Of a DNA stretch of 64,000 bases, positions 17,670 to 48,665 are shown one piece after another. A program made the position numbers and the translations under genes. Source of the DNA: Scenedesmus sp. PABB004 (Eukaryota). The notes beneath the pieces were generated by a model that saw only the letters and a program-made list of their open reading frames with translations, searched no databases and had not been told where the DNA came from. Where the stretch lies: contig JABVCE010000008.1 in assembly GCA_014905635.1 (NCBI GenBank), forward strand, positions 992,001 to 1,056,000, in the 5' to 3' direction. Position 1 is the stretch's first letter, and every line of letters starts with the position of its first letter.

Positions 17670-17701
<32 letters not shown>

Positions 17702-24300: not shown

Positions 24301-24908
24301 GGTCGGACCGTGAGCAGCCGCGCGCCGACGCGGGGTGCCGCCGCGGGGCGCCGACCGCGGCCGCCGCTGGCTGCACCGCGTCCGCCCCGGCGCCTGCTGC
24401 CTGCTGCTGAAAGACCTGCCGCAGACGCCGCCTGCTGCGGCGCCTGGTGCCACTGGTGCAGGAGCCGAAACACCGGCCACGTTTTCCCACCGCCGCCGGC
24501 GCAGTAACCCGGAAAAGCTGCAGCGCAGCAGCGACGCCGCGCTGCCCCAGCCTGCACGCCGCGCTGGGGCCCGGGTGAGCGCTGGTGGCGCAAACGCATC
24601 GGCGACCGCCGGCCCCGCCGCGGCGCGCCCGCACGCCCAGGCCCGCCCGAGATTCAACCCTGACGCTCACCGCAGTTAAGGCTGTTCGTGGAAGGCATGT
24701 ACGTGGCTGAGCAGCGCTCGCACACCGACTGCATCTTGCCGTCCACCTCCTGGATGGAGCAGCGCGTAGCAGCGCACGCGGGGATGATCCCAGGGCATGT
24801 CCCGCCCGTCTGAGCCAGTACGCGGGCGGAGCCGGCCGCGCACGGCTGCGCCAAGGCTGCGAGGCAAGTGAAGGCCACCACCAGCCAGGCCTGCGCCTTT
24901 CCAGCCAT
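21375..24908 (-). CDS. Secreted Cys-rich glycoprotein with GCC2/GCC3 (ephrin-receptor/TNFR-like) repeats and C-terminal PAN/apple-like modules; mastigoneme-protein-like
   Basis: Signal peptide MAGKAQAWLVVAFTCLAALAQPCAA. Many CPxG(T/Y)Y...CxxCPxGxxT...C repeats and many NxS/T sites. C-terminal SLRQCRRSCDEMSTCWGF...CVLR. Introns have GTGAG donors. Confidence 0.85.
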
Positions 24909-26047
24909 GCCTGCTGCGCTGCGGGAATCCCCGGCCTGAATCGGAGCCTGGGGCCGCTGAGGCCGGGGCGGGCAGCGACGACGGGCCCTCGGCGCGCGGG
25001 GGGGCTGGCGGGCGGCGCTGCTGGCGCGTTTGGGGCGGCTTGGGCAGCCGCTAGGGGTCGGGAGGCATAAAAGAAGCGTGGTGTGGGCGGGGGAAGGCTG
25101 GGGCGCGCTGGGCGAGCGGGGCGGCGGGCGAATCCACCGCTCGTCGCCTGCCAGAGCCGTGAACTCCTCCCGTTCGCACTGCGAAGCCCGGCCTCCCGGG
25201 CGCTGCAGCCTGCGCTGCTGCTCCCGTGCACGCGCATCACGGCTGGGAGCGTGAGGCGCGCAGTCCCAGCGGCTCCCACGGCACGGGGCGGGCTGGGGCG
25301 CTGGAGGGCGCGGGCATCCCAGAAACAGGCCCGCTCTGCCGCGAGCTCGACCCAGCCGCGCGTCACGCCTGCGCGGGCTGGCCGATGTGACGATTCCTAC
25401 TCGTTTGTCGCCGGCGACCGCGCTCCTGCGGTCGCCGGTGGCGGCGCGGCGCAGCAGCGGTCGCTTGGGAGGGCCGGGCCTGCGGCGGCGCCAGCTTTTC
25501 ATCCGCGAACAGCTGTGCTCCGTCGAGTGCATGATGGTCGTGCCGAGCACACAGGCTCAAGCAGGGCAGCCGGCCGGCGAGCGGCCAGCTGAGAGAGCTC
25601 AGCGCTGTCGCGCACGCGCGCCGCTCGGCGCGCCGCACGCCGCTCGGCGCTCGGCGCCGCACGCCGCTACCGCCCAGACCGCTCCTGACTGCTGCACGCG
25701 TGCAGGAGCAGTCGCTTCACGAGCGCAGTGCCGCGCTGGCGGCGGCCGGGGCCTGGCCGCACCGCTCGGCGGCAGCGGCGGCAGCGGCCGCGCGCCGGTG
25801 ACGCCCCCCTCGCCCCCGCTCGTGCGGGCCCGGCGCGACGCCCTGGTTCAAAGCGACGCCGTCGCATGCCGCAGGGGCCAGGTAGCTGCCCGCGCGGGCT
25901 CGGAGGTTCTGCGGGCGGTCGCCGTTCGCCGCTGCGGCGGACCCGTCCTGCCCGCTGCGTGGGCCAGACACAATCTATTCGGTCTTAGCGAGTGGCGATG
26001 CGCCGCGCCACGTCCGTGCCGGGCTGATTGGGCCCTGCGCAGGCCGA

Positions 26048-29000
26048 ATGCGCGCCTGGGCGCTGTGGGCGCTGCTGCTGGCCGTTCCCTTGGCCGCAGC
26101 GGCGCCCACAGGGTCCAGGGCGCTCGCGCAGGCGCCGCGCGGCGTGCAGGGCACGCCCTCGTGCCGGCTGCTGGTGCCAGGCTGCGGCGTTGAGGACTGC
26201 ACGCTCACGGTCGTTGGCTGGCGCTCAATCCCCAGCTGTCCACGCTGTGCCAGCAGGCTGTACGTGCGCAGCGAGGACGGCACGCGCTGTGGTGAGGCCG
26301 GCGGCGCGGCGGCGGCAGCAGCAGAGTTGTTGGCCGCGCGCCCTCGCGGCGGGGGCGCAGGGCGTGCCCGGGGCCGCAGCACCCTGGCAGACTGGTGCCA
26401 TGGACGCAGCCCGGGCTGCAGCACGCGCGCCGCGCATTGCGCTGCTCACGACCGACGCGGCGCCCGCGGCGTGCCCGGGGCGCACCGCGCCGCAGACTGC
26501 GCCGCCGGTGCGTTTACCAACTGCACCGACACTGCCGAACCGAGCACCTGCCTGTGCAGCCGCTGCCCGACCGACAGCTGGTGCGGCGGCGGCCTCAACG
26601 CGCCGGGGCAGGCCACCGCGGTGCCGTGCGGCACGGGGCGGACCACGCGGGCTGGCGTCGTGGCGCGGAGCATTAGCGCCTGCGGTGAGTGGCGGCGGCG
26701 GGGTCGCCAGCGGCCGGGCGGCGCCGCGTGCCTGCTGGCGGTGGCTGCGGCCGGCTGCCGCCTGGTCGGCGGGGCCTCCGCTCCACTGACCTGGCGCGTC
26801 TGCCCGCCGCTGCGCCGCTGCCGCACGCAGTGCTGCTGCCTGGCTGGGGCTGGCCCTCGCGTGACGCAGCCGGGCCGGCGCTGTGCCCGTTTGGCACGTA
26901 CAGCACCGGCTGGAGGGCTGCGCGCACGCCCTGCAACCGCTGCCCCTCGGGCTACACGACGCAGTCAGCCGGCTCGACGGCGCGCGAGCAGTGCGGTGAG
27001 CGCGAGCGCGAGGCGGGCTGGGGCGTGGGCCGGCGCGTGGGGGATGCTGCAGCCAAGGCGCTCTAGGGCTGCGCCCAACCTGCAGCGCGTTTGCCGCCTG
27101 TGCCGCGCGCAGTCGCAGCGCCTGGCCTGTTTGTGGACCTGGGTCTGGTGCGGCCCTGCCGCGCTGGCACGTACCAGCCAGCATACACCATGGACGGCCT
27201 GGCAGCGTGCACGCCCTGCGCGACGGGCGTGACAACGGCAACTGCAGCGGCCGTGAGGGCGGCAGACTGCGCAGGTGAGGCGCTCGGGCGCGCGCTGGCG
27301 GGCAGGAAGAGGCAAGGACGAGCGGGGGCACGCCAGCTGCGGCACCTGCCTGACGCGCCTGCACTTGCGCTCGCCTGGCACCGCCCCGCCGCCGCCCCGC
27401 CGCCGGCGGCCCGCCGTCACCACGCTGCAGTCGCGCAGCCGGGCTACGGGCTGACCACCTGCAGCAATGTCACGGGCTGCCAGGCGGCGCAGTGCAGCGT
27501 TGGCACGTACAACCCTGGCGGGCCCGGCAGCAGCAGCTGCCTGGCCTGCCCGTGGGGCCTCACGACCGCCAGCGCGGGCGCGGAAGACGAGAGCCTGTGC
27601 CGCGTGCCGCCCGGCTTTGGCCTGGTGTTCCCGCTGCCAGCCAACAGGAGCGTGAACGCCACAGAGCGGTGCGATTTTGGCTACAACCCTGGCTGGAACC
27701 GGCAGGCGTGCACAAGCTGCGGCTTGAACGTGACGGCCCTGTTCAACCGCACCAGCGCGGCCGACTGCTGTGAGTGTGCGCGCTGGCTGGGGGCGGGCGC
27801 GGGCTGGCCGTCGGGTGCACCTCTCTCCCTCTGCGACGGCCCACGGCTGACGCCCGCTGCGCCGCCCGCCCGCTGCGCCTGTGCGTCTTCTGCATGCATG
27901 TCTGCTGCGCGCAGACGTGCTGCGGGGGCAGGGCCTGCAGGTGGTGGTGCAGGACGACGGCACACGCGTACGCGCGGCGGTCAACTGCTGGGCGGGCTCT
28001 GTCGGCATGCCGGCGCCCACCCCGGCCAGCAGCGCCCTGCCGTGCGACACATGCCCGCGCTTCATGAGCACTCTGCTGGAGCTGAGCACCAACCGCAGCG
28101 CCGACTGCCAGGCGCTGCCTGGCTACACGCCGGTGGTGGGCGCGGCGACGATCCAGGCGGTGGCGTGCGCTGTGGGGACCTACAAGGCCAATTTCAGCAA
28201 TGCCGCGTGCACGCCCTGCCCGTCCTTCACCAGCACGCCGGGCGTCGCGTCGACGAGCGCGGCCAACTGCACAGGTGCGTGGGGTCACGCGCACGTGTCG
28301 TGCGAACAGTCGCCTGGCTGGCGGGCGGGCGGGTGGCATGGGAGGTGCCTGCCGCCGCCGGCACCGCCCGGTGACCGCCGTGCGCCGCTGTGCTGCCGCC
28401 ACCGCCTCCGCCGCCGCCGCCGCCGCTGTTGTTTGATCGCCGCAGTGTGCGCGGCGGGCTACGGCGGCTGGTCGGCTGTGGGCCCTGCCTGCACGCCTTG
28501 CGCGGTGGGCACGGTGAACAGCGGCGGCTCCAGCTCCTGCACCTCTTGCCCGTCCTTCACCAGCACGCCGGGCATCGGGTCAACCAGCACGGCCAACTGC
28601 ACAGGTGCGTGGGGTCACGCGCGCGCGTGCGTGGGAACAGACGCCTGGCGGGCGGGCGGGTGGCATGGGAGGTGCCTGCCGCCGCCCGTACCGCCCACTG
28701 ACCGCCATGCACCGCTGTGCCGCCGCCGCCGCCTCCGCCGCCGCCGCGACCACTGTTGTTTGATCGCCGCAGTGTGCGCGGCGGGCTACGGCGGCTGGTC
28801 GGCTGTGGGCCCTGCCTGCACGCCTTGCGCGGTGGGCACGGTGAACAACGGCAGCTCCAGCTCCTGCACCTCTTGCCCGTCCTTCACCAGCACGCCGGGC
28901 ATCGGGTCAACCAGCACGGCCAACTGCACAGGTGCGTGGGGCCACGCGCGCGCGTGCGTGGGAACAGACGCCTGGCGGGCGGGCGGGTGGCATGGGAGGT

Positions 29001-30606
29001 GCCTGCCGCCGCCCGTACCGCCCACTGACCGCCATGCACCGCTGTGCCGCCGCCGCCGCCTCCGCCGCCGCCGCGACCACTGTTGTTTGATCGCCGCAGT
29101 GTGCGCGGCGGGCTACGGCGGCTGGTCGGCTGTGGGCCCTGCCTGCACGCCTTGCGCGGTGGGCACGGTGAACAGCGGCGGCTCCAGCTCCTGCACCTCT
29201 TGCCCGTCCTTCACCAGCACGCCGGGCATCGGGTCAACCAGCACGGCCAACTGCACAGGTGCGTGGGGTCACGCGCGCGCGTGCGTGGGAACAGTCGCCT
29301 GGCTGGCGGGCGGGTGGCATCGGAGGTGCCTGCCGCCGCTGGCACCGCCCGCTGACCGCCATGCGCCGCTGTGCCGCCGCCGCCGCTGTTGTTTGATCGC
29401 CGCAGTGTGCGCGGCGGGCTACGGCGGCTGGTCGGCTGTGGGCCCTGCCTGCACGCCTTGCGCGGCGGGCACGGTGAACAACGGCAGCTCCAGCTCCTGC
29501 ACCGCTTGCCCGGGCGGCCAGGTGGCCGTCAACACGACCACGTGCTCGCTGCTGCTGCCTGACGTGTCGACGTGCACGCCCCGGCCGGCCGCCTCGTCGG
29601 CCTTGCCCGCCGGCCTGACGTGCCCCGGAGGCCAAAACAACCTGCAGCTGACCGCGGCCGGCAACAGCTATGGCCTGCCCCCTGGGTGCACACCAATGCC
29701 AAACAACATAAACAATCTCGACTGCAGCGTCTCTCCTGGGCAGTGGGAGAATTCTGTCAGCTACACGCTGACGGTGCTCAACATCAGCGGTACGCTGCGA
29801 TGCGTCTGTCCAGGGCTCTACACGCAGGGGCACATGCTGGTGAATGTGGCCGCCGGGGTCCCTGGCATCTTCAACCCTGCTGGCAACAAGTGGAACTGCG
29901 TGCCGCTGCTCACGTTCCTGCCGGACAACGCCAGCCAGCCCACCGGCGCGGGGGTCTGGCTGTTCAACGCGTCCACCACCGCCGACGCGCGCTGCAACAG
30001 CACACAAGGGTGCTGGGACATGTGCTTCTTCTGTGACGGCTCACGGCGCTACTCAGCCAACGTGAGCCCCGCTGCGCCGCACGCGCGCTCGGGCCGCTTG
30101 CTGGCTCAAGTGCTTGTGGCACCGTGCCCCGCCCTGAGCTGTCGCCGCCCCTGCCGCTGCTCACAGACGGCGGTTGGCTTGACCAACGGCACACGCACAG
30201 CCAGGCCCCTGCTCAACACCACGTGCGGCAATCAGACGTGCACCCTGGGCAGTGCAACCACGGCGGTGCGCCCGTTCTGGCAGGCGTGCGAGGAGTACGC
30301 GGGCAGGGTGAGGCGCTCGCGGGCGGGCCACCGCAGTTGCTGCTGCTTCTGCGGCCACTGGCGCCCCCATGCTTCACTCCAGCAGCAGGCAGCACTGCAC
30401 CCAATCTGACGCGCTCTGCCGCCGCCGCCGCCGCCGCTGCTCAGGCCACGCCCGAGGTGCAGGGCAACCTGGCGTTGGTCGGCGGCACGTGGCCCTTCCG
30501 GCCAGCCAACTCCAATACTACGACGCTGCGGCTGCCGCAGGCGCTGCCTAGCCCGCTGACAGTGAATCAAGGGCAGGTGGTGTTGCAGAGCTTCTCGATA
30601 CCATAA
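26048..30606 (+). CDS. Secreted Cys-rich repeat protein, paralogue A (multi-exon)
   Basis: Signal peptide MRAWALWALLLAVPLAAA. Mostly phase-1 exons encoding CPFGTYSTGW...CNRCPSGYTT, CRAGTYQP...CTPCATG and CAAGYGG...CTPCAVGT. Last exon ATPEVQGN...LQSFSIP*. Confidence 0.85.
28205..29500 (+). repeat. Intragenic tandem exon+intron repeat (327-bp unit = 159-bp exon + 168-bp intron)
   Basis: Exons start after CAG at 28446, 28773, 29100 and 29406. Confidence 0.93.
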
Positions 30607-31649
30607 CGCCGGCGCGCGCAGCTGCGCGCTGCGTCTGCGCGCGGCACCAACGGTGCCGCGGCGCTGCCGTGCTGGCGCAGCCAGCCATGCGCGAATCAGC
30701 GCGGGCCGAGGGGGAGTGCGGCCGCTTCAGCGGCGCTGGCCCCGCCCTGCTCCCTCCGGGCAAGGGCAAGGGAGTGTCCTCGCGCACGTTATTGGCGTTC
30801 CCGCACGGCGCCGCTGGGAGTCGCCCGCCTTGCGGCCTGCGCGCTGACGCATGAATAATGAAACCTGTGTGTTTGAGAATTTGTGGCAGAACAGAGGATT
30901 TGGTTGCCGCGTGGATGCGTTTCCGCACGGCGGAGGAGAGGTTTTTTTTGTTGCACAAACACACCCGCGGCCGCTGTCTCGGCAAGGCGCCCACGGGCGC
31001 GAGCGGTAGGGCGTGACTTGGCGGCCCCGTCACGTGTGTGCGCGCGCCCCTGCTCTGGCGTGCTCTGGCGCACACACGCCCCGTGACCACTGCAGCGCAC
31101 GGACGCGCTTCGCACAGCTGTGTGCCTCGCGACCTGGAGCGCCGCGGCCACCCCCCCCCCCTGCTGTGCTGGGCACAGCAGCAGCACGTGGTGTGCTGCG
31201 CTATGGCTGCGGCTGGCGCTCGCCACATTTCGTGCTGTGCTGCACGACCAGACGCCGGCCACCCACGCTTTGCCGGCATCTTCATCCACCTCACGTCACC
31301 CCCCCCCCGGCAAACTGCCTCGCTGTGCTGTGTGTGCTGTGGACAGGCACCCATGACCACGGCTGGCCGCGCGGTTGGTCGTGGCACGACCAACCGCGCA
31401 GCGGCGGTGCGGCAGCCGGCCCCGGGCGCGCCGGCGCGCACGACCACACGACAAATTCACCTTCGGTGGCAGACGGCTCTTGGCTGCAGACAGAGCGCCC
31501 TGGTGCGGTGGAATGGTGCGGCGGAGTGGCTGGCCGCTGTATCGGGCTGAGAGTGGGCGCGCGCCGCGCGGAGAGCGGTGCGCCGCGCTCGCCGGCGCCG
31601 GTCAAATGTATACCTTTTTTTTCATTCGTTTGACCTGCAGTGCTAAATG

Positions 31650-31654
31650 TGTAA
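31650..31654 (+). promoter_or_regulatory. Candidate TGTAA polyadenylation signal for paralogue A
   Basis: UGUAA is the established chlorophycean poly(A) signal. This copy lies in an AT-richer patch ~1 kb after the stop codon. Confidence 0.45.
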
Positions 31655-32162
31655 CTCGGCATTTAGTGGAGCGCCCGGCTCAAGCCCAAGCCGAGCACGG
31701 TGGGTGGTTGGCCGCCGCGCGACGCGCGCGGCGCGCACTCGCGCGCCGCAGGCCGCTCGGCGCTCGCGCCGCACGCCGCTACCGCCGCCCAGACCGCTCC
31801 TGACTGCTGCACGCGTGCGGGCGCAGTCGCTTCACGAGCGCAGTGCCGCGCTGGCGGCGGCCGGGGCCTGGCCGCACCGCTCGGCGGCAGCGGCGGCAGC
31901 GGCCGCGCGCCGGTGACGCCCCCCTCGCCCCCGCTCGTGCGGGCCCGGCGCGACGCCCTGGTTCAAAGCGACGCCGTCGCATGCCGCAGGGGCCAGGTAG
32001 CTGCCCGCGCGGGCTCGGAGGTTCTGCGGGCGGTCGCCGTTCGCCGCTGCGGCGGACCCGTCCTGCCCGCTGCGTGGGCCAGACACAATCTATTCGGTCT
32101 TAGCGAGTGGCGATGCGCCGCGCCACGTCCGTGCCGGGCTGATTGGGCCCTGCGCAGGCCGA

Positions 32163-35100
32163 ATGCGCGCCTGGGCGCTGTGGGCGCTGCTGCTGGCCGT
32201 TCCCTTGGCCGCAGCGGCGCCCACAGGGTCCAGGGCGCTCGCGCAGGCGCCGCGCGGCGTGCAGGGCACGCCCTCGTGCCGGCTGCTGGTGCCAGGCTGC
32301 GGCGTTGAGGACTGCACGCTCACGGTCGTTGGCTGGCGCTCAATCCCCAGCTGTCCACGCTGTGCCAGCAGGCTGTACGTGCGCAGCGAGGACGGCACGC
32401 GCTGTGGTGAGGCCGGCGGCGCGGCGGCGGCAGCAGCAGAGTTGTTGGCCGCGCGCCCTCGCGGCGGGGGCGCAGGGCGTGCCCGGGGCCGCAGCACCCT
32501 GGCAGACTGGTGCCATGGACGCAGCCCGGGCTGCAGCACGCGCGCCGCGCATTGCGCTGCTCACGACCGACGCGGCGCCCGCGGCGTGCCCGGGGCGCAC
32601 CGCGCCGCAGACTGCGCCGCCGGTGCGTTTACCAACTGCACCGACACTGCCGAACCGAGCACCTGCCTGTGCAGCCGCTGCCCGACCGACAGCTGGTGCG
32701 GCGGCGGCCTCAACGCGCCGGGGCAGGCCACCGCGGTGCCGTGCGGCACGGGGCGGACCACGCGGGCTGGCGTCGTGGCGCGGAGCATTAGCGCCTGCGG
32801 TGAGTGGCGGCGGCGGGGTCGCCAGCGGCCGGGCGGCGCCGCGTGCCTGCTGGCGGTGGCTGCGGCCGGCTGCCGCCTGGTCGGCGGGGCCTCCGCTCCA
32901 CTGACCTGGCGCGTCTGCCCGCCGCTGCGCCGCTGCCGCACGCAGTGCTGCTGCCTGGCTGGGGCTGGCCCTCGCGTGACGCAGCCGGGCCGGCGCTGTG
33001 CCCGTTTGGCACGTACAGCACCGGCTGGAGGGCTGCGCGCACGCCCTGCAACCGCTGCCCCTCGGGCTACACGACGCAGTCAGCCGGCTCGACGGCGCGC
33101 GAGCAGTGCGGTGAGCGCGAGCGCGAGGCGGGCTGGGGCGTGGGCCGGCGCGTGGGGGATGCTGCAGCCAAGGCGCTCTAGGGCTGCGCCCAACCTGCAG
33201 CGCGTTTGCCGCCTGTGCCGCGCGCAGTCGCAGCGCCTGGCCTGTTTGTGGACCTGGGTCTGGTGCGGCCCTGCCGCGCTGGCACGTACCAGCCAGCATA
33301 CACCATGGACGGCCTGGCAGCGTGCACGCCCTGCGCGACGGGCGTGACAACGGCAACTGCAGCGGCCGTGAGGGCGGCAGACTGCGCAGGTGAGGCGCTC
33401 GGGCGCGCGCTGGCGGGCAGGAAGAGGCAAGGACGAGCGGGGGCACGCCAGCTGCGGCACCTGCCTGACGCGCCTGCACTTGCGCTCGCCTGGCACCGCC
33501 CCGCCGCCGCCCCGCCGCCGGCGGCCCGCCGTCACCACGCTGCAGTCGCGCAGCCGGGCTACGGGCTGACCACCTGCAGCAATGTCACGGGCTGCCAGGC
33601 GGCGCAGTGCAGCGTTGGCACGTACAACCCTGGCGGGCCCGGCAGCAGCAGCTGCCTGGCCTGCCCGTGGGGCCTCACGACCGCCAGCGCGGGCGCGGAA
33701 GACGAGAGCCTGTGCCGCGTGCCGCCCGGCTTTGGCCTGGTGTTCCCGCTGCCAGCCAACAGGAGCGTGAACGCCACAGAGCGGTGCGATTTTGGCTACA
33801 ACCCTGGCTGGAACCGGCAGGCGTGCACAAGCTGCGGCTTGAACGTGACGGCCCTGTTCAACCGCACCAGCGCGGCCGACTGCTGTGAGTGTGCGCGCTG
33901 GCTGGGGGCGGGCGCGGGCTGGCCGTCGGGTGCACCTCTCTCCCTCTGCGACGGCCCACGGCTGACGCCCGCTGCGCCGCCCGCCCGCTGCGCCTGTGCG
34001 TCTTCTGCATGCATGTCTGCTGCGCGCAGACGTGCTGCGGGGGCAGGGCCTGCAGGTGGTGGTGCAGGACGACGGCACACGCGTACGCGCGGCGGTCAAC
34101 TGCTGGGCGGGCTCTGTCGGCATGCCGGCGCCCACCCCGGCCAGCAGCGCCCTGCCGTGCGACACATGCCCGCGCTTCATGAGCACTCTGCTGGAGCTGA
34201 GCACCAACCGCAGCGCCGACTGCCAGGCGCTGCCTGGCTACACGCCGGTGGTGGGCGCGGCGACGATCCAGGCGGTGGCGTGCGCTGTGGGGACCTACAA
34301 GGCCAATTTCAGCAATGCCGCGTGCACGCCCTGCCCGTCCTTCACCAGCACGCCGGGCGTCGCGTCGACGAGCGCGGCCAACTGCACAGGTGCGTGGGGT
34401 CACGCGCACGTGTCGTGCGAACAGTCGCCTGGCTGGCGGGCGGGCGGGTGGCATGGGAGGTGCCTGCCGCCGCCGGCACCGCCCGGTGACCGCCATGCGC
34501 CGCTGTGCTGCCGCCACCGCCTCCGCCGCCGCCGCCGCCGCTGTTGTTTGATCGCCGCAGTGTGCGCGGCGGGCTACGGCGGCTGGTCGGCTGTGGGCCC
34601 TGCCTGCACGCCTTGCGCGGTGGGCACGGTGAACAGCGGCGGCTCCAGCTCCTGCACCTCTTGCCCGTCCTTCACCAGCACGCCGGGCATCGGGTCAACC
34701 AGCACGGCCAACTGCACAGGTGCGTGGGGTCACGCGCGCGCGTGCGTGGGAACAGACGCCTGGCGGGCGGGCGGGTGGCATGGGAGGTGCCTGCCGCCGC
34801 CGGCACCGCCCGGTGACCGCCATGCGCCGCTGTGCTGCCGCCGCCGCCTCCGCCGCCGCCGCCGCCGCTGTTGTTTGATCGCCGCAGTGTGCGCGGCGGG
34901 CTACGGCGGCTGGTCGGCTGTGGGCCCTGCCTGCACGCCTTGCGCGGTGGGCACGGTGAACAGCGGCGGCTCCAGCTCCTGCACCTCTTGCCCGTCCTTC
35001 ACCAGCACGCCGGGCATCGGGTCAACCAGCACGGCCAACTGCACAGGTGCGTGGGGTCACGCGCGCGCGTGCGTGGGAACAGACGCCTGGCGGGCGGGCG

Positions 35101-36741
35101 GGTGGCATGGGAGGTGCCTGCCGCCGCCCGTACCGCCCACTGACCGCCATGCACCGCTGTGCCGCCGCCGCCGCCCCCTCCGCCGCCGCGACCACTGTTG
35201 TTTGATCGCCGCAGTGTGCGCGGCGGGCTACGGCGGCTGGTCGGCTGTGGGCCCTGCCTGCACGCCTTGCGCGGCGGGCACGGTGAACAACGGCAGCTCC
35301 AGCTCCTGCACCTCTTGCCCGTCCTTCACCAGCACGCCGGGCATCGGGTCAACCAGCACGGCCAACTGCACAGGTGCGTGGGGTCACGCGCGCGCGTGCG
35401 TGGAACAGACGCCTGGCTGGCGGGCGGGTGGCATCGGAGGTGCCTGCCGCCGCTGGCACCGCCCACTGACCGCCATGCGCCGCTGTGCTGCCGCCGCCGC
35501 CTCCTCCGCCGCCGCGACCACTGTTGTTTGCCCACCGCAGTGTGCGCGGCGGGCTACGGCGGCTGGTCGGCTGTGGGCCCTGCCTGCACGCCTTGCGCGG
35601 CGGGCACGGTGAACAACGGCAGCTCCAGCTCCTGCACCGCTTGCCCGGGCGGCCAGGTGGCCGTCAACACGACCACGTGCTCGCTGCTGCTGCCTGACGT
35701 GTCGACGTGCACGCCCCGGCCGGCCGCCTCGTCGGCCTTGCCCGCCGGCCTGTCCTGCCCAAAAGACGGCGGCGACCAGATGGCTGTCTTGGCGCCAGAC
35801 AGCAGTTACGGAGCGCCCCCAGCGTGCGCGCCGGCCCCAGGTTTCAGAGCCGACAAGCCCTGTGACACCTCAAACGGGCGATGGCTTGGCGGCAACGTCG
35901 ATCTCATGCTTGTGAACGTTGGCGGCGTCATGCGCTGCGTCTGCCCGGGGCTCTACACGCAGGGCGACATGATCATACCAGTCACAAACGCCGGCGTGTT
36001 CAACCCCAACGGCACCGAGAACAAGTTTGTGTGCCGGCCGCTGCTCACGTTCCTGCCAAACAACGCCAGCCAGCCCACCGGCGCGGGGGTCTGGCTGTTC
36101 AATGCGTCCACCACCGCCGACGCGCGCTGCAACAGCACACAAGGGTGCTGGGACATGTGCTTCTTCTGTGACGGCTCACGGCGCTACTCAGCCAACGTGA
36201 GCCCCGCTGCGCCGCACGCGCGCTCGGGCCGCTTGCTGGCTCAAGTGCTTGTGGCACCGTGCCCCGCCCTGAGCTGTCGCCGCCCCTGCCGCTGCTCACA
36301 GACGGCGGTTGGCTTGGCCAGCGGCACACGCACAGCCAGGCCCCTGCTCAACACCACGTGCGGCAATCAGACGTGCACCCTGGGCAGTGCAACCACGGCG
36401 GTGCGCCCGTTCTGGCAGGCGTGCGAGGAGTACGCGGGCAGGGTGAGGCGCTCGCGGGCGGGCCACCGCAGTTGCTGCTGCTTCTGCGGCCACTGGCGCC
36501 CCCATGCTTCACTCCAGCAGCAGGCAGCACTGCACCCAATCTGACGCGCTCTGCCGCCGCCGCCGCCGCCGCTGCTCAGGCCACGCCCGAGGTGCAGGGC
36601 AACCTGGCGTTGGTCGGCGGCACGTGGCCCTTCCGGCCAGCCAACTCCAATACTACGACGCTGCGGCTGCCGCAGGCGCTGCCTAGCCCGCTGACAGTGA
36701 ATCAAGGGCAGGTGGTGTTGCAGAGCTTCTCGATACCATAA
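32163..36741 (+). CDS. Secreted Cys-rich repeat protein, paralogue B (multi-exon)
   Basis: Same exon structure and sequence as 26048..30606 apart from a diverged 95-aa segment. Confidence 0.85.
34320..35635 (+). repeat. Intragenic tandem exon+intron repeat (327-bp unit)
   Basis: Exons start at 34561, 34888, 35215 and 35541. Confidence 0.93.
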
Positions 36742-37623
36742 CGCGGCGCGCACAGCTGCAACCACGCCGTGGTGCCGCGGCGCTGCGGTGCCAGCGCAAC
36801 CCCGTCACGCGCAACTCGGCGCGGCGGGGCGAGCCTAGGCTGTGTGTTTCTAGCCACTTCAAAGGGTCCGCCTTTTTCTCCCGGGCGGCAGGCAAGGAGT
36901 TGGTGGGTGAAGGGGGGAGGGGGGCTCACTTGCACCTGTATGGTTTGGTTGCCCCTATCGAGGGGCATTTTCGAACACAAGTGTCGCTTGTTGCTCGCAC
37001 CGCGTGAAAGCGCTGCGGCGAGCTCTGCATGTGGCTGCCAGCCGCAGGCGCAACTTGATGATCAGACGAGCCGCTGCGCGTGACCTGCTATCTATGTGAG
37101 GCCCCCCTATCTGAGGCCCCCCGGGCCTGCTCTGTGTTGTGCGCGCCGCTGACGCCGCCGCCGCACCGGCTTGCTGCCAAGCCGGGCGCGCCCAGCATGG
37201 GCGCGAGTGATGCGCATTCCATGTCGTGCATGTCCTGTGGGCCCTGCTATGTTCCGCCTCCAGCCTCGTGTGTTGCGCAGCGGCCTGCCCGCGTTGCGCC
37301 GTCTCACAACTCAGCCTTGGCTGCACTGCGCCTCGCCTCACTTACCTCGCCTCACAACACTGTGAGCCACGTGTGGGTGCCCTTGTATTAGCGGCGCCGC
37401 TTGTGGCTGGCGCCCCGCCAGCCGCGCGGCCCGGCGCCACGAGCGACACACCTGTGAGAGGTGCGTGGGGCACGGCAGCGCCGGCGCTCGCCAGCCGCAG
37501 CTGTGCCCCCCGGCGGGCTTATCGACAGGGAGGGGCGTGGGGCGTTTGGGGGCGTATCGGCAACGCACGGTCTCGCGGGCTGGGCTGTCCGGACTGCAGC
37601 GTCTGGGGCCTGATCAAGCCAGC

Positions 37624-37628
37624 TGTAA
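37624..37628 (+). promoter_or_regulatory. Candidate TGTAA polyadenylation signal for paralogue B
   Basis: TGTAA ~0.9 kb after the stop codon, close to the convergent RAE1 stop. Confidence 0.4.
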
Positions 37629-37709
37629 CCACTCGTTACCACCAACCCGCCCCGCAGTCACGCAACGACTCGCGAGTCGGGCCTCTGCCACCTCGCCCCC
37701 CTCCCGCCG

Positions 37710-39353
37710 CTACTTGCGCCCCGTCGCGGGCGGCTTCTGGCGCGCCTTGACCTGCGCGCGGCAGGCAGACGGCGGGCAGCGGGTGACGGGCAGCGGCGCG
37801 CGCGCGCCGCGGGGGCGGCGGGCGCGCGCTGCTACACCCGCGCGCCGCGCAGCCCGCGCGCCGGACCTCGGTCTCCTGCGTGCCGTGCAGGTGGACGTAG
37901 CTGGGCATGGCGCCGGGGTTGTAGCCGGCAAAGCCGCGGCCCCAGTCGTAGCTGACGCCATAGGCGTAGATCGAGCCATCGGCGTTGAACGCGCCCGCCG
38001 TGATGGGCGCGGGGTCGGCGCCGTAGCTCGCCTTGGCCATGGCCTTGAGGCGCTGCTTGGAGTCCTTGTCCCAGAAGTTGTACGTGCTGCGGCGCGGGCA
38101 GCGCGGGCGGGGGGCGGGGTGGGGCGGCGCCGGGCGGGGCGGCGCCGGGCGGGGCGGCGCGCGCGCACGGGCGCGCGCGCCCGCAGGCAGCGGCGCGCCG
38201 CGCGCGGGAGGGCAAGCGCGGCGGCGCGCACCCGTCGCTGCCGGCGGTGACAAACGTGCCGTGCACGGGGTGGAAGGCGATGGCGTTGACCGGATAGATG
38301 TCCGCGCCCTCGCGGTGGCACTTGAACGTAAAGTTCTTGGTCGCGCCAACCGACTCCTCCACGTGCTGCACCGCGACGCGGCCCTCGATCGAGCCGATGA
38401 GGTACCCCGCCTTGTCTGTGCGTGTGTGTGATTGTGTGTGTGCGAGTGAGTGTGTGAGTGTGTGAGTGATTGTGAATGAGTGAGTGAGTGAGTGAGTAAA
38501 GGGGGGCAAGGGGCAGGGGAGCGCAGGTGGGCGCGGCAGCGCGCGGGGGCGGGGGCGCGGGAGCGCCGGCGGCGGAGGCGCGGCCGCGGCGCGGCGCCGC
38601 ACCCGGGAAGCACGCGACGCAGCGCGTCTGCCACTTGAGCGGCGACTGCAGCGTCTTGTACGGCGTCTGCGGCTGCTGCAGGTTGAAGACCAGCAGGTGG
38701 CGGTCGGCGGTGCCGACGACGAGCAGCGGGTGCCGCACGTCGAGCGCGTAGCAGCGCTCCGGCAGGGTGTAGCTGAACACCGCGCTCGGCGTGCGGCAGT
38801 CCCAATACTTGAGCGTCTTGTCCCAGCTGCCTGCGCGGGGTTTACGGGCGGCGCGGCGGCGCGATCGCGGCGCGGTGGCGCGGCGGCGCGGGTGCGCAGG
38901 CGCGGGCGCCGCGCCGCGCGCGGCCGCTGCGCGCCGCCGCAGCCCGTCCCGGCGCGCGCGTGCGCGGGCCGCACCCGTGACGAGGAGGTTTGTCTCTGGG
39001 ATGAAGGCGCAGTGGCGGACGGGGCCGTCGTGCGCGGCGACCTGCTGGCTCTGGTTGGTCGCGAGGTTCCAGAGCTTGACCGTCTTGTCGCAGCTGCCCG
39101 TGAACACGCCGGTGCCGTCGGCGTTCCACGCGCTGCACAGCACCGGCTGCGCGTGGCTGGTGGAGGCCTTGGCGGTGGCCTGGCCCGTCGGCGAGACCTC
39201 CCAGCAGTACGCGCTGTTGTCCCAGCACGTCGCGACGAGGATGTTGGCGCGCGGGCTGAACGCCACGCTCGTCACGCCGTCCGGCAGCGCCGGCGTGACC
39301 TGGACGTCCTTGTTGGGGTTAACCCCGCCGCTGGCCGCGGCCGCGCCAAACAT
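37710..39353 (-). CDS. RAE1: mRNA export factor Rae1/Gle2 (WD40), 5 exons
   Basis: Contains [74 protein letters not shown] and [10 protein letters not shown]. Confidence 0.96.
38417..38497. repeat. Degenerate (TG)n/(GTGA)n microsatellite in a RAE1 intron
   Basis: Sequence tgtgcgtgtgtgtgattgtgtg...gagtgagtgagtgagt lies immediately upstream (on the minus strand) of a splice acceptor. Confidence 0.85.
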
Positions 39354-39764
39354 GGCGCCCCCGCGCGCGCGCCGCGCCGGCGCCGCCGCTGCCCGCCGCT
39401 GCTGCTGCGCCGCCCGCCGGCAGGCGCGCTACGGGTTGCCGCTGCGCCCCTGCGCCCCTGCGCGCGCAGGCGGTCCAGATCAGCCGCCTCCGCCTGCGCT
39501 CCGCGGCTAGGGGCGGCTAGGGGGTCACGGTCGCGTCGCAGGGCGGGCGATGCAACGCAGCGCTCGCGGCGCGGGCACGGCCGGATCGGCGCTGCGGGCG
39601 GGGTCGGTGTGCGGGGAGCGCGGAAGTCGGGTTGGTGAAGGACAACCGCGGCTTGCATCAGTTGAACCGCTGCCGCCGCAACCGCTGCAGCCGGCGCGCA
39701 CCGCCCGATCGCGCCAGTCGGCTGCGCCCGCTCCCGACCGCGCAGCAAAGCCAACCCACTAGCA

Positions 39765-41977
39765 ATGGAAGAGGCGCCAGCCCCGCCGCCAGCCCCCCAT
39801 TCGCGCGCGCCGCGCGCCTCCGGCGCGTGGGTGCCGCCGCACCTGCGCGGCGGCGCCGGGGGGGCGGCGGCCGCGCCGCGCAGCCTCGAGGAGCTGGCTC
39901 CGCTGAGCATACAGGTGCGCTGCCTCCGCCTGCTGCCCCGCGTCTGCGACCGCCGCCGCGGCCGGGACACTGCCGCTGCTGCCGCTGCTGCCCGGGCGCT
40001 CACGCGCGCGCGCCCGCCGCACAGATCAAGGTGACGTTCACGGCGGGCGGGGCGTTCAGCTTCGACGCCTGCCCCGACCTGATCACCGGCGAGGAGCAGG
40101 CCGCCGAGCCTGGCGACGGCGGCGGCGGCGACGGCGCGCCGGCTCTCGCGGTGAGCCCGCCGCGGCGGCCGCGCGGCGGGCCGGCCGGCGGGGAGCGCGC
40201 CCCACGCCCGCCGCGCCGTCGCGGGCCCGCCGCGCAGTTCCGCGTGCTGGACAGCCCCGCCTGCCCCGACGACCACCAGATGGGGCAGCTGCTGGCCTGG
40301 TTCAAGGCGGCCGCGGCGGCTGACGCCGCGGCCGAGATGGCGATGCCGGCCGCGCTCTCGAAGCGCGAGCGCGCGCTGTGGCACGGCCGGGCGCAGGCGC
40401 TGGGCCTCGTGTCCGAGAGCAGGGGCTTTGGCGACGCGCGGCACCTGACCGTCCGCCCCGCGCCGCCGAAGCCGCCCTGCGGCTGGCGCGCCGCGCCCGC
40501 GGGCGACGCGCCCGCGGGCGCGACGCCCGCGGGCCGCGGCGCGGAGGCCGGCGCGCGGGGCGGCGGCGCCCGGGGCGCCCGCGGCGGCGGCCGCGGCGGC
40601 CGCGGCCCCGGCGGCGGCGGGCGGCGGCACATGCAGGTGTGGCAGTGGTGCCAGATGGAGGGCGGCGCGTTTGAGCGCTACAGCCAGGGCGAGCTGGCGG
40701 AGCTGCTGGCGGCGGGGGATGACGCGCTGCCAGCGCCACTGCGGGGCATGATCCGGCGCCGGTGAGCCCCCGGGGCGCAAGGCCGGGGCGGGCCCCGCGC
40801 GGCCGCCGCCCTGCACCCGCCAACACCCCCCCCCCCCCCCCCGCCCCTGCCCCCGCCCCGCCCGCTGCCGCGCGCCCTCCGCCGTCCGCGCGCAGCGAAA
40901 CGGCCGCCGAGCTGGTGGCGGCGCTGCAGCGCCGCGACGAGGCGGCGGCGCTGCAGCTGCTTGCGAGCTGCCCGCCGGGCGCCAAGCTCGGCTGGGTGCG
41001 CGACCCTGCGAGCGGCGGCTACCCGGCCCATGTGGCAGCATTCCACGGCCTGGGAGGTGTGCTGAAGCAGCTCGTGGCCGCGCACGGTGCGGCCGGTGGC
41101 GCCGCGCGCCGCTGCAGCGGCAGGGCGCTGGCCGCGGCGGCCCGGCGCGCGCTCGACGCCTGCGCGGCCGCCCTGCCCGCCGCGCGCAGGGCCGGAGGTG
41201 CTCCAGCAGCACGACGCGGCGCGCGCCACGCCGATCGCCTTGGCACAGCGGCGCGGCCACGAACAGCTGGCGGCGGAGCTGGAGGCGCTTCGGCTGTCAG
41301 CGGGTGCGCCGGGCCCGCGGCCCGTGCCCGGCGCCGCGCCCGGTGCCGGCAGCGGCGGCGGCGGCGGCGGCGACAGCGGCGCGGCGGCCGGCGGTGCCAG
41401 CCGCCCTGCGACCGCCGACGGCTTCGAGGGCAGGGGCTTTGGCCGCGGCCGGGGCGCGCCGCTGGTGGGCGGGGAGCCCGTCGCCCCGGGCGCTGCGGCG
41501 GCAGCGCAGGAGGGGCACGGCGAGCCGGGCATGCCGGTGGTGGCGGCGGGGCCGCCAGCGCCGGGGGCGCGCGGCTTTGGCGCGCGCTGGCCGAGCGGCG
41601 AGGGCGCCGCGCGCAGCGAGGCACCGCCAGCGGCGGTGGGGGCGGACGGCCAGGCGTCGCAGCCGCCGCCGCAGCAGGAGCAGCAGGAGCAGCAGGAGCA
41701 GCAGGAGCAGCAGGAGCAGCAGCAGGAGCAGCAGCAAGAGCAGGAGCAGCAGCAGCAGCAGGAGCCGGGCAGCCAGGCGCGGCGGGGGGATGCGGACGTC
41801 TATTGCTCTTTCGCCAGTGACTCCGACAGGGCGTACACGCTTTTCGGCCGCGGCGGTCGCGCGCCCGGGCGCGCGCGCGGCGGCGGCCGCTGGGCCGGGC
41901 CGGGGCGGGGCGGCCGCGGCGCGCCGGGGCCGGCCGGGGGTCGCCGGCCCGAGCCGCCGTCGCGACCGGGGTGGTGA
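39765..41977 (+). CDS. R3H-domain + ankyrin-repeat protein with RGG-rich segments
   Basis: R3H: MPAALSKRERALWHGRAQALGLVSESRGFGDARHLTV. Ankyrin-like: GGYPAHVAAFHGLGGVLKQLV / ATPIALAQRRGHEQLAAEL. RGG clusters follow the R3H domain and occur at the C-terminus. Confidence 0.8.
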
Positions 41978-42157
41978 GCGGCGGCGGCGCAATTGGAAGT
42001 TGCAACTTGGCCGTTGCCCCGTGGCCGTCCGAGGCCGCGCCGCGCTGCAGCGAGGCAGCCAGACAGATGGTCTACAACTTGTACACGTGGCGCGCGCGGG
42101 CGCAGCCGCCGCCGCGCCCATTGACGAGCCCCGCGCCGCCGGCCGGCGGGCAGGCGG

Positions 42158-42603
42158 TCAGGTGAAGCCGAGCGCGTCGTTGACGGTGCAGTGCATCATC
42201 GCCACGACGCTGCTCGCGCGCCGCAGCGCGCCGTCGTGCCGCGCCGCGTGCCCCGGCCCCGGGCTCGGGCACTGCGGCAGGTGCCCGTGGCCGTGCGGCA
42301 GGGGCGGGCCCATGCTGCCGCCCAGCAGCCCCGCCGCATGCGCGGGCGGCGCGCCCGCCGCGGCCGCCGCCAGCGCACCAAAGGGGCACGCGGGCGGCGC
42401 CCCGCCGGGGCGGCGCGCGGCGCCGCGCAGCGAGCTGATGTCCCCGGCACCACCGCCCGCCGCGATCATGGCGTTGGGCGTGCGGCCCGGCGCGGCGCCG
42501 CGCACCGCGGCTGCCCAGCCGCCGCCGCCGGCCGCCGCGACGGCGCCTGGCGCCGTGGCGCCTGGCGCCGTGGCGCCGCCGGGGGGCACGCCAGCTGCCG
42601 CCG

Positions 42604-42635
<32 letters not shown>

Positions 42636-44146: not shown

Positions 44147-44503
44147 GGCGCGCGACGCCGGGCCTTAATCCCGCGCCGCCATGCCGCGGCGCCGCGGCGC
44201 GGGGCGGCCCAGCGGCGACAGTCGACAGTCGACAGCGGCGTCGAGGCCGCAGGGCGACGCGGCGTGCGGCCCGATCGGCTGGAGTGCGCGGGCTGGGAGG
44301 AGTGCGGGCTGGCGGGGCGGAGCGCGGGGAGGCGGGGGGCGAGCGGGGCGGTGCGGTCGTGCTGGACCCTGCTCCGCTCGCCGTGTGCTCACTTGCGACG
44401 TGTGGCGCCCCTGACCGCCTCCCCGCGCGCCCCACGCACGCGCCCGGCTCGCTGTGCTCGGGGGACCCACGCAAGCAAGCGCGGCCCTCGCTCCTGCCTC
44501 CCG

Positions 44504-48638: not shown

Positions 48639-48665
48639 CGGCGCAGCGTGCTCGGGCGGCGGCGC

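What the first reader, a model, noticed from the sequence alone, without database searches (positions are those of the whole stretch)
29618..36037. Twin secreted Cys-rich genes that are near-identical except for one hypervariable 95-aa cassette
Seen in sequence: paralogues A and B match almost base for base over ~5 kb, including the upstream region and introns. Inside one exon, 29618-29902 and 35753-36037 (both exactly 285 bp, 95 codons) are strongly diverged. A reads TCPGGQNNLQLTAAGNSYGLPPGCTPMPNNINNLDCSVSPGQWENSVSY...KWNCV; B reads SCPKDGGDQMAVLAPDSSYGAPPACAPAPGFRADKPCDTSNGRWLGGNVD...KFVCR. Six cysteines, SYGxPPxC, a Trp, RCVCPGLYTQG and FNP are kept, and identity resumes abruptly on both sides. 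Inference: coding sequence far more diverged than the neighbouring introns is the opposite of neutral ageing. It suggests gene conversion or cassette exchange homogenising a scaffold while a specificity domain is held polymorphic. This is a candidate diversified surface-recognition system (self/non-self, mating, or pathogen/virus/grazer interaction) in a green alga.
Basis: partly seen in the sequence, partly recalled or inferred. Interest (0 to 1): 0.85.

Follow-up and report, generated by a model that had tools for sequence, protein, structure and literature searches.

The report
Twin algal genes with frozen block
Two neighbouring copies of a secreted cysteine-rich gene in a green alga are kept almost identical by copying between them, except for one 95-codon block that has stayed different for a very long time; this pattern is known from other gene pairs, but here the contrast is unusually sharp.

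Summary
The window is from Scenedesmus sp. PABB004. Two tandem 941-aa genes, A (26048-30606) and B (32163-36741), have no differences over 2,672 bp, introns included. Codons 717-811 (29618-29902 / 35753-36037) share only 55% of bases and 40 of 92 residues. There dS is 1.18, against 0.003 in the rest of the coding sequence.

The pair is not hypervariable. Only two cassette forms turned up. NG86 dN/dS is 0.49. A freshwater-metagenome relative carries the A form at 96.7% identity, plus a second form of the same length on the same flanks.

The ends of the duplication decay to about 75-80% identity. The relative differs from both PABB004 copies at flank sites where the two copies agree with each other. 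The best reading is therefore an old tandem duplication homogenised by interlocus gene conversion, with an ancient block that conversion does not cross.

The cassette is the N-terminal two thirds of a rare Cys-rich domain. It has no Pfam family and no PDB fold match. Its function is unknown. The GenBank model ('SVEP1') wrongly fuses the two genes. This is a new, extreme member of a known evolutionary pattern.

The parts
25604..30704 (+). Duplication unit A. It holds 444 bp of upstream sequence, gene A, and about 100 bp past the stop codon.
   Evidence: BLASTN; pair alignment.
31711..36824 (+). Duplication unit B, the tandem copy of unit A.
   Evidence: BLASTN; pair alignment.
26048..30606 (+). 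Gene A. It has 12 exons and encodes 941 aa. Exons: 26048-26291, 26496-26684, 26831-26995, 27113-27274, 27431-27769, 27915-28274, 28446-28604, 28773-28931, 29100-29258, 29406-30061, 30236-30307, 30445-30606 (stop included).
   Evidence: Exons 1-11 and the start of exon 12 come from exact mapping of GenBank protein P0003. The end was set by analogy with copy B's last exon. Translation. All introns are GT..AG.
32163..36741 (+). Gene B. It has 12 exons and encodes 941 aa. Exons: 32163-32406, 32611-32799, 32946-33110, 33228-33389, 33546-33884, 34030-34389, 34561-34719, 34888-35046, 35215-35373, 35541-36196, 36371-36442, 36580-36741.
   Evidence: My model, built by homology with gene A. It gives an open 941-aa frame. 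The GenBank model instead fuses B to A and splices out 35657-35962.
29618..29902 (+). Cassette A: codons 717-811 within exon 10.
   Evidence: A metagenome contig spans 29530-29953 with 14 differing letters and no gaps (X1 record 1).
35753..36037 (+). Cassette B: codons 717-811 within exon 10.
   Evidence: This stretch was not itself laid on reads. Metagenome contigs laid on copy A's stretch carry a non-A form of the same length on the same flanks (joints 29625>29796 and 29836>29902).
29543..30061 (+). Copy A: the exon-10 stretch (173 aa) used as query and fold model for the C-terminal Cys-rich domain. The cassette is the N-terminal part (residues 26-120 of the 173). The conserved part ends in ...CWDMCFFCDGSRRY.
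   Evidence: Homologues P0004-P0018. AF2 model with pLDDT 74.6. No Pfam family at E up to 1 beyond the Ephrin_rec_like/NCD3G repeat region.
35678..36196 (+). Copy B: the matching exon-10 stretch (173 aa) covering the same C-terminal domain.
   Evidence: AF2 model with pLDDT 74.2 and the same main strand pattern as copy A.
25708..28379 (+). A 2,672-bp tract with no difference from 31823-34494. It covers the promoter, exons 1-6 and introns 1-5 and reaches into intron 6.
   Evidence: Difference list.
28217..29512 (+). A 327-bp exon-plus-intron tandem array in gene A (4 units). Each unit encodes one Ephrin_rec_like repeat.
   Evidence: Pfam.
34332..35647 (+). The same 327-bp array in gene B (4 units). 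Unit A2 is closest to B3 (2 differences), not to its positional partner B2 (9 differences).
30705..31710 (.). Unique spacer between the two units (68% GC). It holds the rest of gene A's 3' region.
   Evidence: No repeat found; GC. It is present at about 93% identity in metagenome contigs (X1 record 4 and X2 record 12).
30607..30704 (+). Decayed 3' edge of the duplication, about 75-80% identical to 36742-36824.
   Evidence: 76 of 100 columns, then 56 of 100. (alignment score 31, against 200 shuffles with mean 12.9, sd 3.1, max 24).
25598..25688 (+). Decayed 5' edge of the duplication, matching 31705-31803 at 79 of 100 columns with 10 gaps.

Best explanation
A and B are an old tandem duplicate pair of a secreted, heavily disulphide-bonded glycoprotein. 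The architecture is a signal peptide, an N-terminal Cys knot, Ephrin_rec_like/TNFR-like repeats, a 'TPRP' linker, and a lineage-restricted C-terminal Cys-rich domain with a WPFRP tail.

Interlocus (non-allelic) gene conversion, with unequal exchange in the 327-bp exon-intron array, keeps the promoter, exons and introns of the two copies identical. This is concerted evolution.

The 285-bp block that encodes the N-terminal two thirds of the C-terminal domain is not converted, and has not been for a very long time (dS about 1.2). Each genome therefore keeps two ancient forms of that domain on one shared scaffold.

The block is kept apart in one or both of two ways. Selection may remove convertants, because the two forms do different things, most likely bind different partners. 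Alternatively, at 45% base divergence, heteroduplex formation may simply stop at the block's edges. That would explain why the edges are sharp.

Shown here: the sequence pattern, its age contrast, its presence in an independent wild sample, and the fact that both forms keep the residues that are invariant across the family alignment. Inferred: conversion as the mechanism, selection, and any binding function.
For: (1) Contrast in divergence. Cassette dS is 1.18 and dN 0.58 over 92 codons. Outside it dS and dN are both 0.003 over 846 codons. There are no differences over 25708-28379, introns included.

(2) The duplication is old. Both ends of the unit decay to roughly 75-80% identity over about 100 nt, rather than stopping at a sharp breakpoint.

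(3) Signature of concerted evolution in the freshwater metagenomes X1 and X2.
- An A-type contig spans 29530-29953 with 14 of 424 letters different.
- A second contig type has the same flanks and matches the conserved island 29796-29836. It is otherwise diverged, and the stretch between the island and the right flank is reported as 'same length' (65 nt).
- At 30055 and 30108 the wild contigs read G, where both PABB004 copies read A. In X1 a single contig covers these sites to the right of both cassette forms.

(4) Two loci exist in the wild sample. An X2 contig laid on A's 3' end runs on into 23 letters that are identical to B's own downstream sequence, 36799-36821. X2 also holds the A-specific spacer (records 12 and 13).

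(5) In a tree of the cassette region, A and B are sisters (support 0.979) on long branches. The divergence therefore arose within this gene lineage and was not imported from a distant paralogue.

(6) The remaining non-array differences lie within about 285 bp to the right of the cassette. This is expected if conversion tracts end variably near a barrier.

(7) GC3 is 74/95 in each cassette against 749/846 in the rest (Fisher p = 0.005). Homogenised introns are 77% GC, against 68-70% for the unconverted spacer and right flank. This fits GC-biased conversion acting everywhere except in the block.

(8) Array units are shuffled between and within the genes. A2 is closest to B3, with 2 differences against 9 to B2. 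This shows active exchange at the locus and argues against the two copies being a collapsed artefact.

(9) Both cassettes keep the six Cys and the motifs shared across the family. Both give the same main predicted strands at pLDDT about 74.

(10) The pattern is an established one: a 'peak of divergence' in duplicates undergoing conversion (Fawcett and Innan 2011, PMC3924837, passages read).
Against: - No raw long reads of the strain could be examined, so the tandem arrangement rests on the deposited assembly plus indirect metagenome evidence. No contig in the rows shown bridges either junction of the spacer (69 rows were not shown).
- Short-read polishing could have exaggerated the perfect identity of the flanks.
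- The non-A wild cassette was not itself aligned to B. It could be a third form.
- Wild contigs cannot be assigned to a copy. Point (3) assumes that both cassette contigs flow into the single flank contig.
- dN/dS of 0.49 with saturated dS gives no positive evidence for diversifying selection. A passive divergence barrier would suffice without any functional difference.
- The genome outside this window could not be searched, so a third, donor copy is not excluded.
- No RNA run was listed, so expression of either copy is unknown.
Confidence: 0.65

Rival explanations
1. Recent tandem duplication followed by replacement of the block in one copy. The donor would be a third, diverged paralogue elsewhere in the genome, acting by a single ectopic conversion (cassette import).
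For: Zero differences over 2.7 kb would be the simplest outcome of a very young duplication. The rest of the genome could not be searched.
Against: - The edges of the unit have decayed to about 75-80% identity, which a young duplication would not show.
- A wild relative about 2-3% diverged already carries both forms on the same flanks, including at least 440 nt of right flank with intron 10 (X2 record 9).
- A and B are sisters in the cassette tree.
- The only other PABB004 family member found, P0017, is 33% identical.
- No other copy lies in the window.
Confidence: 0.1
2. Assembly artefact. A and B would be two alleles or haplotypes, or two strains in a mixed culture, joined in tandem, with their flanks made identical by polishing.
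For: Perfectly identical multi-kb repeats are where assemblers and polishers make errors. No raw reads of the strain were available (one search lists only metagenomes).
Against: - A 1,006-bp unique spacer separates the copies, and the two copies have different downstream sequences.
- The array composition differs between the copies, including a 21-nt indel in the last array intron.
- The contig is 1.46 Mb long, and the assembly has 77 contigs with N50 1.3 Mb (PMC12571836, table passage).
- An independent metagenome holds both A's downstream spacer and B's own downstream sequence. X1 holds both cassette forms at similar depth, 8.8 and 10.
Confidence: 0.07
3. Targeted hypermutation, or a genuinely hypervariable multi-allele recognition cassette under diversifying selection.
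For: The block is sharply bounded and in frame, with its length preserved. It falls in the more variable half of the family's domain.
Against: - Between PABB004 and the wild relative, the contig over the A cassette and its flanks differs at only 14 of 424 positions, similar to other parts of the gene at about 2-3%.
- Only two forms were seen.
- dN/dS is 0.49.
- Synonymous sites are as saturated as replacement sites. This points to age rather than to selection-driven replacement.
Confidence: 0.05

Closest known systems
Human red/green opsin tandem duplicates: a 'peak of divergence' under ongoing gene conversion (Teshima and Innan 2008, as described in Fawcett and Innan 2011, PMC3924837; passages read)
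   Same: Tandem duplicates are kept alike by conversion, introns included. A short coding stretch that carries the functional difference stays diverged.
   Different: As I recall (from no call), the opsin genes differ at only a small fraction of sites even at the peak in exon 5. Here the island is a 95-codon block at 45% base divergence with saturated dS and near-rectangular edges. The functional difference is unknown.
RHD/RHCE and clustered protocadherin variable exons (Innan 2003; Noonan et al. 2004). I saw these only as entries in the reference list of PMC3924837; the details are recalled.
   Same: Conversion homogenises parts of paralogous genes, while regions that determine specificity remain distinct.
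   Different: Those are animal membrane proteins with known functions, and the protocadherins have many paralogues. Here there are two copies of a secreted algal protein with an uncharacterised domain.
Arabidopsis halleri HMA4 tandem paralogues: mosaic divergence from interlocus gene conversion (bioRxiv 10.1101/2025.10.29.685298; abstract read)
   Same: Tandem paralogues in which the effective conversion rate varies within the gene, giving a mosaic of divergence.
   Different: That study models the early evolution of recent copies. Here the island is ancient and the contrast is about 400-fold in dS.
Cassette-based antigenic or recognition variation with silent donors (trypanosome VSG, Neisseria pilE/pilS, Plasmodium var). 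Recalled; not from a call.
   Same: A constant scaffold carries a replaceable, diverged coding block, and exchange is by gene conversion.
   Different: No donor archive, only two forms, both in complete genes with their own promoters, and no sign of fast turnover.
SVEP1, the name the GenBank record gives this protein
   Same: It is a large extracellular multi-domain Cys-rich protein, and animal SVEP1 also contains Ephrin_rec_like repeats (recalled).
   Different: Pfam finds only Ephrin_rec_like, with no sushi, VWA, EGF or pentraxin domains. The name comes from automatic transfer and does not indicate orthology.

Membership tests
Ephrin_rec_like (PF07699) repeat proteins | Match to PF07699 above the gathering score (23.1 bits). 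| tested here: met
   82.9 bits with 5 stretches on the read-through frame 27851-30409. 218.3 bits with 14 stretches on the fused model P0003, that is about 7 per gene.
Duplicates under concerted evolution with a divergence peak (Teshima-Innan type) | In the homogenised part, paralogues in one genome are more alike than orthologues between lineages. | tested here: met
   A and B are identical at 30055 and 30108, where the wild contigs read G. Wild flank contigs are about 2-3% away from both copies, against 0-0.3% between A and B. Caveat: wild contigs cannot be assigned to a copy.
Duplicates under concerted evolution with a divergence peak (Teshima-Innan type) | In the island, the paralogues are far more diverged than the orthologues. 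| tested here: met
   A against B is 45% different. A against the wild A-type contig differs at 14 of 424 positions.
Duplicates under concerted evolution with a divergence peak (Teshima-Innan type) | The duplication is older than the similarity of the homogenised part suggests. | tested here: met
   Edges are at about 75-80% identity. Cassette dS is 1.18. Both forms are present in a diverged wild lineage.
Duplicates under concerted evolution with a divergence peak (Teshima-Innan type) | The island is maintained by selection for functional difference. | tested here: inconclusive
   dN/dS is 0.49 with saturated dS. A passive barrier from sequence divergence fits equally well. No functional data exist.
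Hypervariable cassette / silent-donor recognition systems | Many cassette variants or donor copies exist in the genome or the population. | tested here: not met
   Only A and B score in a six-frame HMM search of the window; the next best hit has E = 0.91. Protein databases give no further cassette on these flanks. Two forms appear in the metagenomes. The rest of the genome was not searchable.
Hypervariable cassette / silent-donor recognition systems | Excess of replacement over silent change (dN/dS above 1), or fast turnover between strains. | tested here: not met
   dN/dS is 0.49, or 0.81 in an ungapped and poorer alignment. The wild A-type contig over the cassette and its flanks is 96.7% identical.
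SVEP1 orthologues | Sushi/CCP, VWA, EGF and pentraxin domains. | tested here: not met
   Pfam on P0003 at E up to 0.001 lists only PF07699.
Known structural folds (PDB) | The predicted C-terminal domain resembles a solved structure. | tested here: inconclusive
   Foldseek finds no match at E up to 0.001; the best is 0.29. VIA-align finds 1 of 48,161 chains at Z of 2 or more (Z = 2.7). The sequence profile finds nothing in the PDB at E up to 1. The model is only moderately confident (pLDDT 74.6).

The most novel reading that the evidence does not exclude
The block encodes two anciently fixed binding specificities of a lineage-restricted extracellular domain whose predicted fold matches nothing solved. 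Selection against conversion would keep both forms in every genome because the alga needs the pair. One possibility is a heterotypic A-B contact, or two-target recognition, in cell-wall or coenobium assembly, gamete contact, or defence. That would make it a paralogous, two-type recognition module kept across lineages, and not merely a passive leftover of divergence.
Probability: 0.2. Interest if true: 0.65.

Novelty: new member of a known kind. Interest (0 to 1): 0.45.

Why it matters
This is one of the sharpest natural examples of mosaic concerted evolution. Two gene copies have no differences over 2.7 kb, introns included, next to a 285-bp block whose synonymous sites are saturated. It comes from an alga with an extreme 78.5% GC genome, where GC-biased conversion is probably a dominant force. 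The pair offers an internal control for measuring conversion tract limits and GC-biased conversion, comparing converted with unconverted sequence in one gene. It also marks the part of an uncharacterised, rare algal extracellular domain most likely to carry specificity. In practical terms, the public gene model is wrong and should be split into two genes.

Tried and rejected
- Whole genome of the window: none is held. A genome-wide search for third copies was therefore impossible.
- The listing of cluster members for names and taxa of the homologues: the database was switched off. The taxa of P0004-P0016 remain unknown.
- Earlier findings of this scan: nothing by sequence or by place.
- JGI metagenome contigs:
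  - The first alignment was too diverse to give a search pattern.
  - With a five-sequence alignment, 179 pattern matches were found and none was a relative.
- Sequencing runs:
  - Only 5 metagenome runs were listed, and no RNA holder was listed. Expression is therefore untested.
  - Runs X3 and X4 gave mostly matches of about 30 nt, plus a few near-identical pieces of 151-188 nt; I did not use them.
  - The A-type cassette is not covered in X2, and neither spacer junction is bridged in the rows shown. These gaps prove nothing.
- ESM Atlas: best score 0.78, below the useful range.
- Fold searches and PDB sequence search: nothing.
Only secondary structure and pLDDT could be compared.
- Diversity-generating-retroelement-like or template-driven mutagenesis: no second near-copy of the cassette lies in the window. 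Not pursued further.
- A literature search for Ephrin_rec_like in green algae returned only irrelevant papers.
- The proteomics paper on Scenedesmus cell walls (PMC11839794) does not mention this protein among the passages found; 'SVEP1', 'ephrin' and 'cysteine-rich' each occurred 0 times.


Full report
WHAT IS THERE

The window is from the green alga Scenedesmus sp. PABB004. The exon holding cassette A matches, at 100%, a 1725-aa GenBank protein named 'SVEP1' on a 1.46-Mb contig. A comparative-genomics paper lists this genome as 39.8 Mb, 77 contigs, N50 1.3 Mb, 78.5% GC and 1.31% repeats (PMC12571836, table passages). The window itself is 70-82% GC.

Self-BLASTN shows a tandem duplication. 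25602-29625 matches 31717-35760 at 98.5%, and 29902-30625 matches 36037-36759 at 99.0%. A permissive alignment joins these into 25604-30704 = 31711-36824. A unique 1,006-bp spacer (30705-31710) separates the two units.

GENE MODELS

Exact mapping of the GenBank protein onto the window shows that the public model fuses the two copies. It leaves gene A at 30561, enters copy B through two invented exons, and removes 35657-35962 as an 'intron', which deletes most of cassette B.

Read by homology, each unit holds a complete 12-exon gene with its own ATG and stop codon. Gene A is 26048-30606 and gene B is 32163-36741, and both encode 941 aa. Each protein has:
- a hydrophobic N-terminus and no other hydrophobic 19-residue window,
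- 77 Cys and 20 NxS/T sites,
- about seven Ephrin_rec_like (PF07699) repeats above threshold.

Four of these repeats are encoded by a 327-bp exon-plus-intron tandem array.

The diverged block is codons 717-811, at 29618-29902 and 35753-36037, and is 285 bp in both copies.

Inside the block, 40 of 92 aligned residues and 152 of 276 bases are identical. By the Nei-Gojobori method, dS is 1.18, dN is 0.58 and dN/dS is 0.49. An ungapped, poorer alignment gives 0.81.

Outside the block, 846 codons carry 2 silent and 6 replacement differences, so dS and dN are both 0.003. Five of the six replacements lie in the repeat array.

Across all sequence classes outside the array and the cassette, the differences are 2 of 358 upstream, 4 of 1891 exon and 2 of 1079 intron columns. 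There are none at all between 25708 and 28379, a stretch of 2,672 bp. The few non-array differences downstream of the cassette lie within about 285 bp of its right edge.

WHAT THE BLOCK ENCODES

A full HMMER scan of 1.84 billion representative proteins found 14 proteins at E up to 0.001, one of which is the fused model itself. Word-indexed searches added another PABB004 paralogue on a different contig (P0017, 33% identical) and a EukProt protein.

Aligned, these proteins define a Cys-rich domain of about 150 aa that ends in ...CWDMCFFCDGSRRY. In the sequences that extend far enough it is followed by a tail containing a WP[FY]RP motif. The cassette is the N-terminal two thirds of this domain, and that part is the less conserved one across the family. 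All columns that are invariant across the full alignments lie at or after the last cassette Cys.

The domain has no Pfam family, no sequence match in the PDB and no useful Atlas neighbour.

AlphaFold2 with the 17-sequence alignment gives mainly beta models for A (pLDDT 74.6, pTM 0.68) and for B (74.2, 0.69). Both have the same main strands (77-81, 84-88, 97-102, 116-121, 123-127, 136-141) and the same helix at 154-161. The two models share one alignment, so they are not independent.

Neither Foldseek (best E = 0.29) nor an exhaustive structural alignment (1 of 48,161 chains at Z of 2 or more, Z = 2.7) finds a known fold. Function is therefore unknown. I infer only that this is an extracellular, disulphide-rich module, probably a binding module.

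HOW OLD IS THE SPLIT, AND WHERE DID IT ARISE?

In the cassette region, A and B share 39 of 92 residues. That is little more than either shares with homologues from other sources, where the nine sequences spanning the cassette share 23-37% with A or B. In the conserved remainder of the domain, A and B share 52 of 53 residues, against about 37-63% for the others.

A FastTree of the cassette region places A and B as sisters (support 0.979) on long branches of 0.65 and 0.82. The two forms therefore diverged within this gene lineage long ago. They were not borrowed from a distant paralogue.

EVIDENCE FROM WILD SAMPLES

No run of the strain itself was offered, but two freshwater metagenomes from one study hold 35% and 20% of the sampled words of 29406-36196. 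I laid four runs on 29513-34322. I chose that stretch because it holds no long internal repeat.

In X1:
- A 424-nt contig spans the left flank, cassette A and the right flank (29530-29953), with 14 differing letters and no gaps.
- A second contig, also seen in X2 as record 9, matches the same flanks and the conserved island 29796-29836. It skips the rest, and the tool reports the stretch between the island and the right flank as 'same length, diverged'. This is what cassette B, or a B-like form, would look like when laid on A.
- The depths of the two contigs are similar, at 8.8 and 10.

To the right of the cassette, X1 has a single contig. It reads G at 30055 and 30108, as does the B-type contig of X2. 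Both PABB004 copies read A at these sites.

An X2 contig laid on gene A's 3' end runs on into 23 letters that are identical to B's own downstream sequence, 36799-36821. X2 also holds the A-specific spacer (records 12 and 13).

A relative about 2-3% diverged in genic sequence, and about 7% in the spacer, therefore carries both cassette forms and both downstream contexts. Its flanks differ from both PABB004 copies at sites where those copies agree with each other.

Between lineages the A-type contig, which spans the cassette and its flanks, differs by about 3%. That is no more than the rest of the gene. The block is ancient and dimorphic, not fast-evolving.

Limits of this evidence:
- These are Logan contigs, not reads, and 69 rows were not shown.
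- No listed contig bridges the spacer junctions.
- Contigs cannot be assigned to a copy.
- The non-A form was not compared with B directly.

MECHANISM

The best-supported account is an old tandem duplication whose copies undergo concerted evolution by interlocus gene conversion, with one block that conversion does not cross. Beyond the points above, four observations support it:
- The unit's ends decay to roughly 75-80% identity over about 100 nt instead of stopping sharply. For the 3' edge the alignment score is 31, against 200 shuffles with mean 12.9, sd 3.1 and max 24. This is what an old duplication looks like beyond the reach of most conversion tracts.
- The array units are shuffled. A2 differs from B3 at 2 positions but from its positional partner B2 at 9.
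- Each cassette has lower GC3 (74/95) than the rest of the gene (749/846, Fisher p = 0.005).
- The homogenised introns are 77% GC, against 68-70% for the unconverted spacer and right flank. This fits GC-biased conversion acting everywhere except in the block.

This kind of pattern is established. Fawcett and Innan describe how selection under conversion leaves high divergence in one region and very low divergence elsewhere, producing a 'peak of divergence', with the human red/green opsins as the example (PMC3924837, passages). A recent preprint reports mosaic divergence in the tandem HMA4 paralogues (abstract).

I cannot decide whether the block is held by selection, meaning two useful specificities, or is simply frozen. 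At 45% divergence, strand exchange may stop at its edges, which would also explain why the block is nearly rectangular. dN/dS of 0.49 with saturated dS does not help to choose.

RIVALS

- A young duplication with cassette import is disfavoured by the decayed edges, by the presence of both forms on the same flanks in the wild relative, and by the sister relation in the tree. It cannot be closed without the whole genome.
- A mis-joined pair of haplotypes is disfavoured by the unique spacer, the different downstream sequences, the differences between the arrays, and the wild sample holding both downstream contexts. Only long reads of the strain would settle it, and polishing may have exaggerated the perfect identity.
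- A truly hypervariable or hypermutated cassette is not supported. Only two forms were found, there are no donors in the window (next best E = 0.91), and turnover between lineages is ordinary.

VERDICT

'Hypervariable', 'cassette exchange' and a recognition function are not supported.

This is a new and unusually sharp member of a known evolutionary pattern, sitting in a rare algal extracellular domain without a known family or fold. Interest is moderate: it is a clean natural system for studying conversion limits and GC-biased conversion, and a pointer to where specificity may lie in an unknown domain. It is not a new kind of system.

Noticed in passing
window 1-3293: A 483-bp tandem repeat with 6.8 copies at 99% identity, running off the start of the window. 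It is open in several frames. The two long read-through frames gave no Pfam hit at E up to 0.001.
   Followed up: partly
window 26048-36741 (GenBank protein P0003): The public gene model named 'SVEP1' fuses genes A and B into one 1725-aa protein. It splices out 35657-35962, which is most of cassette B. It should be two 941-aa genes.
   Followed up: yes
window about 21784-25556, minus strand: A further gene encoding an Ephrin_rec_like repeat protein (PF07699, 62.7 bits), transcribed away from gene A. Its N-terminus has a signal-like peptide and a Cys knot resembling gene A's. No C-terminal cassette domain was found in it.
   Followed up: partly
window 20000-40000: This 20-kb stretch, which holds the Cys-rich genes, is 70-76% GC. 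The sequence on both sides is about 80% GC.
   Followed up: no
window 48662-49009 and 50654-51002: A 349-bp direct repeat at 98.6% identity, with the copies 2 kb apart.
   Followed up: no
protein P0017 (another PABB004 contig): The only other family member found in this species is also a fused gene model. It joins a large Cys-rich protein carrying the same C-terminal domain to an HSP20 domain at residues 1582-1692.
   Followed up: partly
window 29796-29836 / 35931-35971: A 41-nt conserved island (RCVCPGLYTQG) lies inside the cassette. At 29800 both wild contig types read C, as in copy B, where copy A reads A. This may be a small conversion within the island.
   Followed up: no
window 37713-39428 (-), 39521-40762 (+), 42075-44633 (-), 16823-18283 (+): The neighbouring open frames carry WD40, R3H, Cullin_binding and FAD/NAD-binding amine-oxidase-like domains. 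These are ordinary housekeeping genes flanking the Cys-rich cluster.
   Followed up: no
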